Positions 1 through 1,874 of a DNA stretch of 64,000 bases are shown here, one piece after another (the first letter of the stretch is position 1; every line of letters starts with the position of its first letter). The notes below the pieces were generated by a model that made no database searches, was not told the DNA's origin, and saw nothing but the letters and a program-made list of their open reading frames with translations. The DNA lies in contig OZ024742.1 in NCBI GenBank assembly GCA_964016885.1, positions 249,612,001 through 249,676,000 of the forward strand. The letters are read 5' to 3'. The translations under genes and the position numbers were made by a program. This DNA comes from Eledone cirrhosa (lineage: Eukaryota).

Positions 1-132
1 TACATATATGCACGTATCAGTTTAGCGGCGCTAACGTCGCTTTGTTCGTTTGTAAACAATCTGAACAGCCTGAATTTATGCCATACGGTGTTAAGGCAAC
101 CACGTCACCTTTTTGTTCAACACTGACACAGG

Positions 133-177
133 AACGATGTACTAGTTTCAAGCTTGTTAGCTATCATCAGCACCGTT
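133..177 (-). ncRNA. Minimal type I hammerhead ribozyme (array copy)
   Basis: Minus strand reads aacggtg-CTGATGA-t-agct-aaca-agct-t-GAAA-ctag-TA^catcgtt; stem I aacggtg/catcgtt, stem II agct/agct, palindromic stem III ACTAGT, GUA cleavage triplet. Confidence 0.9.
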
Positions 178-420
178 TACCCATCTGCCAGATAGTTGAA
201 CGTTCGAAAGTATATACTTTCCGTATGAAAATTAACGGCTGAGCAGCCTAATTTGCATATTGAGTGAGTTAAATCGGTCAGGCATACCGAAAACGATAAA
301 TTGAAACAAAATGAAAACGAAATTTCATTTCTCACTCTTAGTATGGCACTTACTTAAATGTAAGTATGCATGTATACGTATATACATATATGTATACAGA
401 CGTACAGTAGCATGCACATA

Positions 421-452
<32 letters not shown>

Positions 453-604
453 CATATGCATACAGGTACACATACATATATGCACGTATCAGTTTAGCGG
501 CGCTAACGTCGCTTTGTTCGTTTGTAAACAAACTGAACAGCCTGAATTTATGCCATACGGTGTTAAGGCAACCACGTCAGCTTTTTGTTCAACACTGACA
601 CAGG

Positions 605-649
605 AACGATGTACTAGTTTCAAGCTTGTTAGCTATCATCAGCACCGTT
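605..649 (-). ncRNA. Minimal type I hammerhead ribozyme (array copy)
   Basis: Identical to 133-177. Confidence 0.9.
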
Positions 650-1070
650 TACCCATCTGCCAGATAGTTGAACGTTCGAAAGTATATACTTTCCTTATGA
701 AAATTAACGGCTGAGCAGCCTAATTTGCATATTGAGTGAGTTAAATCGGTCAGGCATACCGAAAACGATAAATTGAAACAAAATGAAAACGAAATTTCAT
801 TTCTCACTCTTAGTATGGCACTTACTTAAATGTAAGTATGCATGTATACGTACATACATATATGTATACAGACGTACAGTAGCATGCAAATATATATATA
901 TATATACATATATATATACATATGCATACAGGTACACATACATATATGCACGTATCAGTTTAGCGGCGCTAACGTCGCTTTGTTCGTTTGTAAACAAACT
1001 GAACAGCCTGAATTTATGCCATACGGTGTTAAGGCAACCACGTCACCTTTTTGTTCAACACTGACACAGG

Positions 1071-1115
1071 AACGATGTACTAGTTTCAAGCTTGTTAGCT
1101 ATCATCAGCACCGTT
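1071..1115 (-). ncRNA. Minimal type I hammerhead ribozyme (array copy)
   Basis: Identical to 133-177. Confidence 0.9.
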
Positions 1116-1495
1116 TACCCATCTGCCAGATAGTTGAACGTTCGAAAGTATATACTTTCCTTATGAAAATTAACGGCTGAGCAGCCTAATTTGCATATTG
1201 AGTGAGTTAAATCGGTCAGGCATACCGAAAACGATAAATTGAAACAAAATGAAAACGAAATTTCATTTCTCACTCTTAGTATGGCACTTACTTAAATGTA
1301 AGTATGCATGTATACGTACATACATATATGTATACAGACGTACAGTAGCATGCACATATATATATATATATATATATACATATATATATACATATGCATA
1401 CAGGTACACATACATATATGCACGTATCAGTTTAGCGGCGCTAACGTCGCTTTGTTCGTTTGTAAACAAACTGAACAGCCTGAATTTATGCCATA

Positions 1496-1873
1496 CGAAC
1501 GTTCAACTATCTGGCAGATGGGTAAACGGTGCTGATGATAGCTAACAAGCTTGAAACTAGTACATCGTTCCTGTGTCAGTGTTGAACAAAAAGTTGACGT
1601 GGTTGCCTTAACACCGTATGGCATAAATTCAGGCTGTTCAGTTTGTTTACAAACGAACAAAGCGACGTTAGCGCCGCTAAACTGATACGTGCATATATGT
1701 ATGTGTACCTGTATGCATATGTATATATATATGTATATATATATATATATATGTGCATGCTACTGTACGTCTGTATACATATATGTATGTACGTATACAT
1801 GCATACTTACATTTAAGTAAGTGCCATACTAAGAGTGAGAAATGAAATTTCGTTTTCATTTTGTTTCAATTTA

Positions 1874-1874
<1 letters not shown>
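1496..1874 (+). repeat. Inverted partial monomer (about 0.8 unit) of the same family, head-to-head with the upstream array, ending in (TA)n
   Basis: Reverse complement of the unit; junction ccatacg/cgaacgttc with 2-nt CG overlap; 3' end ...ttcaatttat followed by (TA)n. Confidence 0.93.
1525..1569 (+). ncRNA. Minimal type I hammerhead ribozyme (inverted array copy)
   Basis: aacggtg CTGATGA t agct aaca agct t GAAA ctag TA^ catcgtt; predicted cleavage after 1562. Confidence 0.9.

What the first reader, a model, noticed from the sequence alone, without database searches (positions are those of the whole stretch)
1..1874. Second array has a Penelope-style head-to-head inversion and the same 3' end point at (AT)n
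Seen: minus-sense units (1-1497) join a plus-sense partial unit (1496-1874) through a 2-nt CG overlap. This copy ends at ...ttcaa(t/c)ttat plus (AT)n, the same monomer position where the 41.6-45.7 kb array ends (45671). Established: 5'-truncation with inverted segments and (AT)n targeting are typical of Penelope-like retroelements. Inference: these are retrotransposed insertions with a defined priming end, not ordinary satellite DNA. The Neptune-like element at 53.3-55.2 kb is a plausible type of trans-acting partner, since it also sits in (TA)n and its hammerhead has the same U-U pair at the base of stem II.
Basis: partly seen in the sequence, partly recalled or inferred. Interest (0 to 1): 0.75.

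Follow-up and report, generated by a model that had tools for sequence, protein, structure and literature searches.

The report
Two-armed Penelope-type hammerhead retrozyme insertion
This is one copy of an abundant non-coding repeat carrying a predicted self-cutting RNA motif; its copies sit in TA repeats as two back-to-back arms that nearly always end at two different fixed points about 60 bases apart, which likely means a borrowed Penelope-type enzyme copies one RNA into both ends of a DNA cut, a proposed but untested step.

Summary
Observation confirmed, but incomplete. The ~465-bp unit carries a minimal type I hammerhead (10,739 exact genomic copies): an animal non-LTR retrozyme. There are two fixed 3' ends, not one. 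Of 25 two-armed loci with both ends classed, 23 pair L with S and none L with L (p~1e-5). Only 3 genomic sites end at the ribozyme cut. In 14 of 49 loci neither arm nests in the other, excluding simple fold-back. The window's Neptune-like family follows the same rule (10 of 11). Best reading: a Penelope-like enzyme primes both strands of a cut (TA)n at two internal RNA sites (the known PLE 'tail') and the cDNAs join by microhomology. The Neptune partner is unsupported by sequence; a second young PLE with a matching 60-nt tail, fused to the 41.6-kb array, is a better but unproven candidate. Circular template not shown. The scan has already reported this family and rule on other DNA of this genome.

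The parts
1..1497 (-). S-ended arm of the insertion (in-window part; whole arm 2,541 nt, 5.4 units, starting 1,044 bases before the window, outer end at monomer position 409 in (TA)n)
1496..1874 (+). L-ended arm, monomer positions 90-468 (0.8 unit)
1496..1497 (.). 2-nt microhomology at the head-to-head junction
1526..1568 (+). Minimal type I hammerhead: 6-bp stem I, CUGAUGA, stem II with basal U-U, GAAA, palindromic stem III, predicted cut after 1562
   Evidence: sequence, motif scan, stem I variants; no Rfam match at gathering score
1072..1114 (-). Hammerhead of a minus-arm unit (others at 606-648 and 134-176)
1148..1196 (-). U6-like promoter layout: ATGCAAAT element 42 nt upstream of a TATA box, about 40 nt upstream of the hammerhead (one per unit)
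   Evidence: same element 46-47 nt upstream of the TATA box in 2 U6 loci of this genome; kept in the sister family
1816..1874 (+). 59-nt 'tail' between the S site (1815) and the L site (1874), containing a hairpin
1875..1929 (.). (TA)n target, shared with an unrelated two-armed element at 1930-2121
41637..45671 (+). Second array of the same family, L-ended, units of two variants mixed
41351..41641 (-). S-ended 3' arm of a different PLE family (PLE-B, with its own hammerhead) joined head-to-head to the second array by a 19-nt fold-back and 5-nt microhomology, with no (TA)n between
53283..55227 (-). 5'-truncated, frameshifted copy of a young Neptune-like PLE family; same two-site rule, but no sequence shared with the monomer

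Best explanation
This is one insertion of a non-coding hammerhead retrozyme family whose two back-to-back arms end at two fixed sites 59 nt apart, likely because a Penelope-like RT/endonuclease working in trans cuts both strands of a (TA)n repeat and primes reverse transcription from each 3' end at a different internal site of one RNA. Shown: two end sites, L+S pairing, (TA)n flanks, scattered inner ends, short microhomology, arms of the same variant, read-through of the ribozyme cut site. Inferred: transcription from the U6-like promoter in each unit; self-cleavage (probably as a dimer, palindromic stem III); a protein dimer placing one active site at S and one at L; two 5'-truncated cDNAs annealing end to end by microhomology and being filled in. 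The template must be multimeric or circular; a circle is plausible (about 0.55) but not shown. Partner unknown: PLE-B about 0.35, the window's Neptune family about 0.15, another family about 0.5 (my estimates).
For: Hammerhead-anchored sample, 52 loci: 32 simple head-to-head groups, 25 with both ends classed: 23 L/S, 2 S/S, 0 L/L (p=9.7e-6 against 50%). S-anchored, 60 loci: 27 L/S, 2 S/S. L-anchored older subfamilies, 20 regions: 14 L/S, 0 L/L. Three of the four S/S calls fall away on inspection (two end at L, one is interrupted). Genome-wide junctions with (TA)n: 4,979 forward-strand L, 2,689 S, 3 sites at the ribozyme cut. Neither arm nests in the other in 14 of 49 L/S loci. The two arms are closer to each other than to the median other arm in 17 of 17 testable loci. 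Microhomology of 2 nt or more at 17 of 27 resolved junctions. Inner ends near the ribozyme cut: 1 of 58 and 0 of 58. The autonomous Neptune-like family pairs its two sites in 10 of 11 inverted loci. One locus holds units with 11 of 16 and 13 of 18 rare changes being sense A>G, an RNA-editing scar. In vitro, a PLE protein cuts and extends both strands, starts at two internal sites that define the tail and is predicted to dimerise (PMC11167929).
Against: No partner with sequence homology to the monomer was found among about 25 PLE 3' regions examined. PMC11167929 saw no difference in start site between the two strands, so it does not itself predict the L+S pairing. One S/S locus (L107m) stays ambiguous. 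Many insertions are single-armed (21 of 60 S-anchored by the automatic call). No overall A>G strand bias (71 A>G vs 85 T>C), and no excess of edits shared by all units (1 of 5), so a circular template is unsupported by my tests; the 41.6-kb array mixes two variants with a three-unit repeat, which fits a linear multimer or local duplication. Expression, cleavage and empty sites were not observed. Samples come from one chromosome arm and exact-motif anchors.
Confidence: 0.8

Rival explanations
1. Self-priming: one cDNA (or an antisense template) folds back and copies itself, and the endonuclease then resolves the hairpin at the tail, giving the second arm (the model discussed in PMC3846280 and PMC8557442).
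For: Explains identical arms, one-sided tails and junctions at palindromes (3 of 58 with both inner ends at the same position); 35 of 49 loci are compatible with nesting.
Against: In 14 of 49 loci neither arm is contained in the other, including loci where the L arm is only the tail; most junctions join two different monomer positions by 0-6 nt.
Confidence: 0.12
2. Solo pLTR-like units are inserted and then amplified locally into arrays by unequal crossover, with inversions arising later at DNA level (the amplification route favoured in bioRxiv 10.64898/2026.07.22.740005).
For: Three-unit periodicity and mixed variants in the 41.6-kb array; 26 rare variants shared by only some units of an array.
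Against: Does not explain why inverted arms end at complementary sites, why multi-unit arms occur on both sides of clean junctions, or why intact PLEs share the geometry. It may add units after insertion.
Confidence: 0.05
3. The inversion is an assembly artefact of a palindromic, TA-rich repeat.
For: The exact junction was not bridged in the listed contigs of four runs.
Against: Dozens of distinct junctions with non-random L+S ends; arms differ by private substitutions; head-to-head joints of the family appear in independent run contigs.
Confidence: 0.03

Closest known systems
Metazoan non-LTR retrozymes (Cervera and de la Pena 2020, PMC7229834; passages and Discussion read)
   Same: Short non-coding tandem units, one type I hammerhead each, low GC, thousands of dispersed copies, PLEs in the same genome; PLE mobilisation of a circRNA proposed there.
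   Different: Unit 461-472 bp (theirs about 170-400); minimal PLE-type hammerhead; two-armed insertions, fixed S/L ends and (TA)n targeting are not in the passages read (0 hits for 'inverted' and 'microsatellite'); circles not shown here.
Vertebrate retrozymes as PLE derivatives (Li, Clavereau, Pollet 2026, bioRxiv 10.64898/2026.07.22.740005; parts 1-3 of 5 read, supplements closed)
   Same: Retrozymes read as non-autonomous PLE derivatives; size range covers this unit.
   Different: Evidence there is co-occurrence and pLTR homology; no junction analysis in the parts read; favours local amplification. Here no pLTR homologue was found, but the insertion footprint is PLE-type.
EN+ Penelope-like elements with inverted 5'-truncated copy and one-sided tail (PMC3846280, PMC8557442; passages read) and Poseidon PAc in vitro (PMC11167929; parts 1-2 of 4 read)
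   Same: Head-to-head inversion, tail at one end, (TA)n bias, hammerhead near the 3' end, two internal RT start sites.
   Different: No ORF; tail 59 nt rather than 30-40; the tail is called 'optional' or 'often at one end' there, whereas here L+S pairing is nearly obligatory in two-armed copies.
Non-autonomous Chlamys elements such as MRC1 (PMC8557442, passage)
   Same: Non-coding PLE passengers with multicopy head-to-tail insertions.
   Different: They share 3' sequence with autonomous families and lack canonical hammerheads; this family has a hammerhead and no identified homologous partner.
L1 twin priming (recalled, not read here)
   Same: Both target strands prime; inverted 5' part; microhomology at the junction.
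   Different: In L1 the second priming site varies and abuts the first cDNA; here both sites are fixed and the inner ends are independent.

Membership tests
Non-LTR retrozyme | Short tandem non-coding units, each with a type I hammerhead | tested here: met
   461-472-bp units with one hammerhead each; core nearly invariant, stem I pair 3 varies as G-U, A-U, U-G; below Rfam gathering score
Non-LTR retrozyme | Dispersed, high copy number, monomers to multimers | tested here: met
   10,739 and 9,958 exact 30-mer matches; 0.1 to more than 7 units per arm
Non-LTR retrozyme | No LTR, PBS, PPT or protein | tested here: met
   No terminal repeats beyond the unit; only antisense 129-131-aa stop-to-stop frames through the microsatellite
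Non-LTR retrozyme | Self-cleavage of the transcript | not testable with these tools
   Inferred from motif conservation only
Non-LTR retrozyme | Expression as linear and circular RNA | tested here: inconclusive
   Runs on record as RNA held only 0.03 of the words; other holders are of unknown kind and kept as contigs; variant-sharing test uninformative
Penelope-like element (non-autonomous) | Inverted 5'-truncated copy joined head to head | tested here: met
   32 simple two-armed groups in 52 loci
Penelope-like element (non-autonomous) | Tail at one end, from two 3' end sites | tested here: met
   Sites 409 and 468; 23 of 25 L/S
Penelope-like element (non-autonomous) | (TA)n targeting | tested here: met
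   Arm ends followed by TA runs; thousands of such junctions
Penelope-like element (non-autonomous) | 3' or pLTR homology to an autonomous family | tested here: not met
   None to the Neptune-like unit or to about 25 PLE 3' regions from 0.83 Mb of loci; the search was not genome-wide
Penelope-like element (autonomous) | RT plus GIY-YIG ORF | tested here: not met
   Unit is non-coding
Ordinary satellite DNA | Array ends unrelated to monomer position | tested here: not met
   Outer ends at two fixed sites; only inner ends are scattered

The most novel reading that the evidence does not exclude
A self-transcribing, self-cleaving RNA circle with its own U6-type promoter is copied by a PLE dimer whose two active sites are set 60 nt apart on one RNA, one per cut DNA strand; tail length (about 32, 30-45, 60, 79, 90 nt in five families here) is a family-specific ruler that identifies the helper, and PLE-B drives this retrozyme without sharing primary sequence, sometimes fusing its own RNA into the other arm. 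When two different RNAs are used the L+S rule relaxes (2 of 4 inter-family junctions are L/L).
Probability: 0.25. Interest if true: 0.75.

Novelty: new member of a known kind. Interest (0 to 1): 0.5.

Why it matters
How retrozymes get into genomes and why PLEs leave inverted copies with a one-sided tail are both called unresolved in the papers read. A 465-nt RNA with thousands of young insertions gives a counted rule (one long and one short end per two-armed insertion, arms not nested) that separates two-site priming from fold-back models and supplies a small substrate and candidate enzymes for an in vitro test.

Tried and rejected
Rfam scan: no hammerhead at gathering score. Monomer versus Neptune-like unit and other PLE 3' regions: no homology. 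RT stalling at L, S or the ribozyme cut: no enrichment among 58 junctions. Whether the terminal units of both arms match best: not informative, units too alike. Global A>G bias: none. Shared-edit test for a circle: uninformative. Exact junction in run contigs: not bridged, which proves nothing for a 10,000-copy repeat or another individual. My first reading of the sequence left of each array as duplicated host flank was wrong: these are other two-armed repeat families. PLE clade names rest on motifs only (CX2-5CxxC linker, CCHH), no tree was built. U6 upstream sequence was recovered for 2 of 6 loci tried. Literature searches for octopus+Penelope+hammerhead, Penelope+twin priming+inversion and retrozyme+cephalopod returned no description of this family or rule in their listings; subscription papers and bioRxiv supplements were not visible.

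Full report
Observation. Window 1-1497 holds minus-sense copies of a 466-472-bp unit, and 1496-1874 a plus-sense partial copy, sharing CG at the junction. The plus arm and the 41.6-45.7 kb array stop at the same monomer position, 468 in my numbering (site L), before (AT)n. The window lies at G000:C3:249612001-249676000 in a 3.0-Gb assembly. The neighbouring stretch shows that the minus arm is 5.4 units long and ends in (TA)n at position 409 (site S), 59 nt short of L.

The unit. Each unit has a minimal type I hammerhead (window 1526-1568) with a palindromic stem III. Rfam does not report it. Across fetched copies the core is nearly invariant and stem I pair 3 occurs as G-U (241), A-U (19) and U-G (6) (counts are copies, not events). 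The circular fold is more stable than 40 dinucleotide shuffles (z -7.3), partly because of the internal palindromic TA tract. Upstream of the ribozyme is an ATGCAAAT element 42 nt before a TATA box; two U6 loci of this genome have the same element 46-47 nt before their TATA box at -30 (four other U6 loci were not recovered by my motif). A divergent 466-bp sister family keeps this layout, the ribozyme and the hairpin before L. That the element transcribes itself is inferred. Exact 30-mers occur 10,739 and 9,958 times, and 14 runs of 11 coded organisms hold a third or more of the sampled words.

Ends. I took the first hammerhead-motif hits on contig C1 (52 loci). Arm 3' ends fall at L or S and are followed by TA runs. 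Of 32 simple head-to-head groups, 7 were left out (6 with one unclassed end, 1 cut by the locus edge); of the other 25, 23 are L/S, 2 S/S, 0 L/L (p=9.7e-6). Six complex groups were not counted. Among 60 S-anchored loci 27 are L/S, 2 S/S, 4 with an unclassed second end, 1 cut, 5 complex and 21 single by the automatic call; among 20 L-anchored regions of older subfamilies 14 L/S, 0 L/L, 3 unclassed, 4 complex. On inspection L079m and L240 end at L, L221 is interrupted and L107m is ambiguous. Genome-wide, L+(TA)n has 4,979 forward-strand matches (the reverse count is inflated by multiple lengths), S+(TA)n 2,689, and the ribozyme cut +(AT)n 4 matches at 3 sites; the patterns differ in stringency, so L and S counts cannot be compared.

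How the two arms relate. In 17 of 28 two-armed loci with overlapping arms, the arms are closer to each other than to the median other arm in all 17. In 14 of 49 L/S loci neither arm nests in the other, so one arm cannot be a fold-back copy of the other. Inner ends are scattered, with 1 of 58 and 0 of 58 near the ribozyme cut, so RT reads through it and the template is uncut multimer or circle. Of 58 junctions 27 were resolved (31 left out: mismatches or inserted bases near the junction, or TA tract); 17 have 2 nt or more of microhomology (p~1e-6 against 0.2, somewhat inflated by choosing the best of 87 unit variants). One locus carries clustered sense A>G changes (11 of 16, 13 of 18), evidence of an RNA stage, but there is no global bias (71 vs 85), and the test for edits shared by all units gave 1 of 5 in 69 arrays. 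A circle is thus not shown; the mixed variants of the 41.6-kb array point to a linear multimer or later duplication there.

Partner. The Neptune-like family is young (median 99.4% identity), has intact copies, a 4,211-bp unit with two ORFs, and the same geometry: 10 of 11 inverted loci, picked for neighbouring hits, pair its two sites and one is interrupted. It shares no sequence with the monomer and its tail is about 30-45 nt. A second family, PLE-B, is also young (99.0%) and has two sites about 60 nt apart. An S-ended PLE-B arm is joined head to head, without (TA)n, to the L-ended 41.6-kb array. Three more inter-family junctions were seen (L126 S/L; L147 and L075 L/L). L/L in 2 of 4 chimeras against 0 of 25 same-family loci (Fisher p=0.015, post hoc) fits a rule set by one RNA, but deletion between neighbouring independent insertions is not excluded. 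The partner stays unproven.

Known systems. PMC7229834 (passages and Discussion) defines non-LTR retrozymes and proposes PLE-driven copying of circles. The 2026 preprint (parts 1-3 of 5) links them to pLTRs by homology. PMC3846280 and PMC8557442 (passages) describe the inverted copy, the one-sided tail and a self-priming or endonuclease-resolution explanation. PMC11167929 (parts 1-2 of 4) shows both strands cut and extended and two internal start sites. L1 twin priming is recalled, not read. Searches listed no paper giving the L+S pairing for retrozymes; only listings were seen for most hits.

Earlier scan notes. Searches, made after my counts, show the same family and rule reported on other DNA of this genome. 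They are not independent support. One gave the leads on promoter and editing, tested here with mixed results.

Verdict. Real feature; a new member of a known kind (non-LTR retrozyme) that works like a non-autonomous PLE. Its value is the counted insertion rule, which makes the PLE tail mechanism and retrozyme mobilisation testable. Interest 0.5.

Noticed in passing
window 1930-2121, 17593-18185, 52884-53177: Three other families with the same two-armed layout in (TA)n and one-sided tails of about 79, 32 and 90 nt; the 17.6-18.2 kb one has a hammerhead in each arm.
   Followed up: partly
L075, L219, L247: Divergent 466-bp sister retrozyme with compensated hammerhead stems and the same promoter layout and L hairpin; L075 joins it head to head to the family studied here.
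   Followed up: partly
L199-L217 (Neptune-like unit): Two overlapping ORFs (449 aa and 728 aa from the first ATG) with a T-rich heptamer at the overlap, suggesting a -1 frameshift; intact tandem and inverted copies are numerous.
   Followed up: no
L036: Two units with clustered A>G changes that also destroy the hammerhead core; likely copies of a hyper-edited RNA.
   Followed up: partly
window 51414-52664 (-): 416-aa open frame of another PLE family, Penelope/Poseidon-like by motif; no Pfam match at 1e-3.
   Followed up: no
window 46100-46330: Tail-to-tail inverted pair around a (TA)n run, probably two 3' ends of one family facing each other.
   Followed up: no
window 21.8-30.9 kb: Decayed LINE-type ORFs (endonuclease and RT frames) on both strands.
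   Followed up: no
window 7760-7830: tRNA-like sequence just above the Rfam cut-off, probably a SINE head.
   Followed up: no
G000:C19:31.78-31.84 Mb: Tandem array of about 30 U6-like sequences at 1.8-kb spacing.
   Followed up: no
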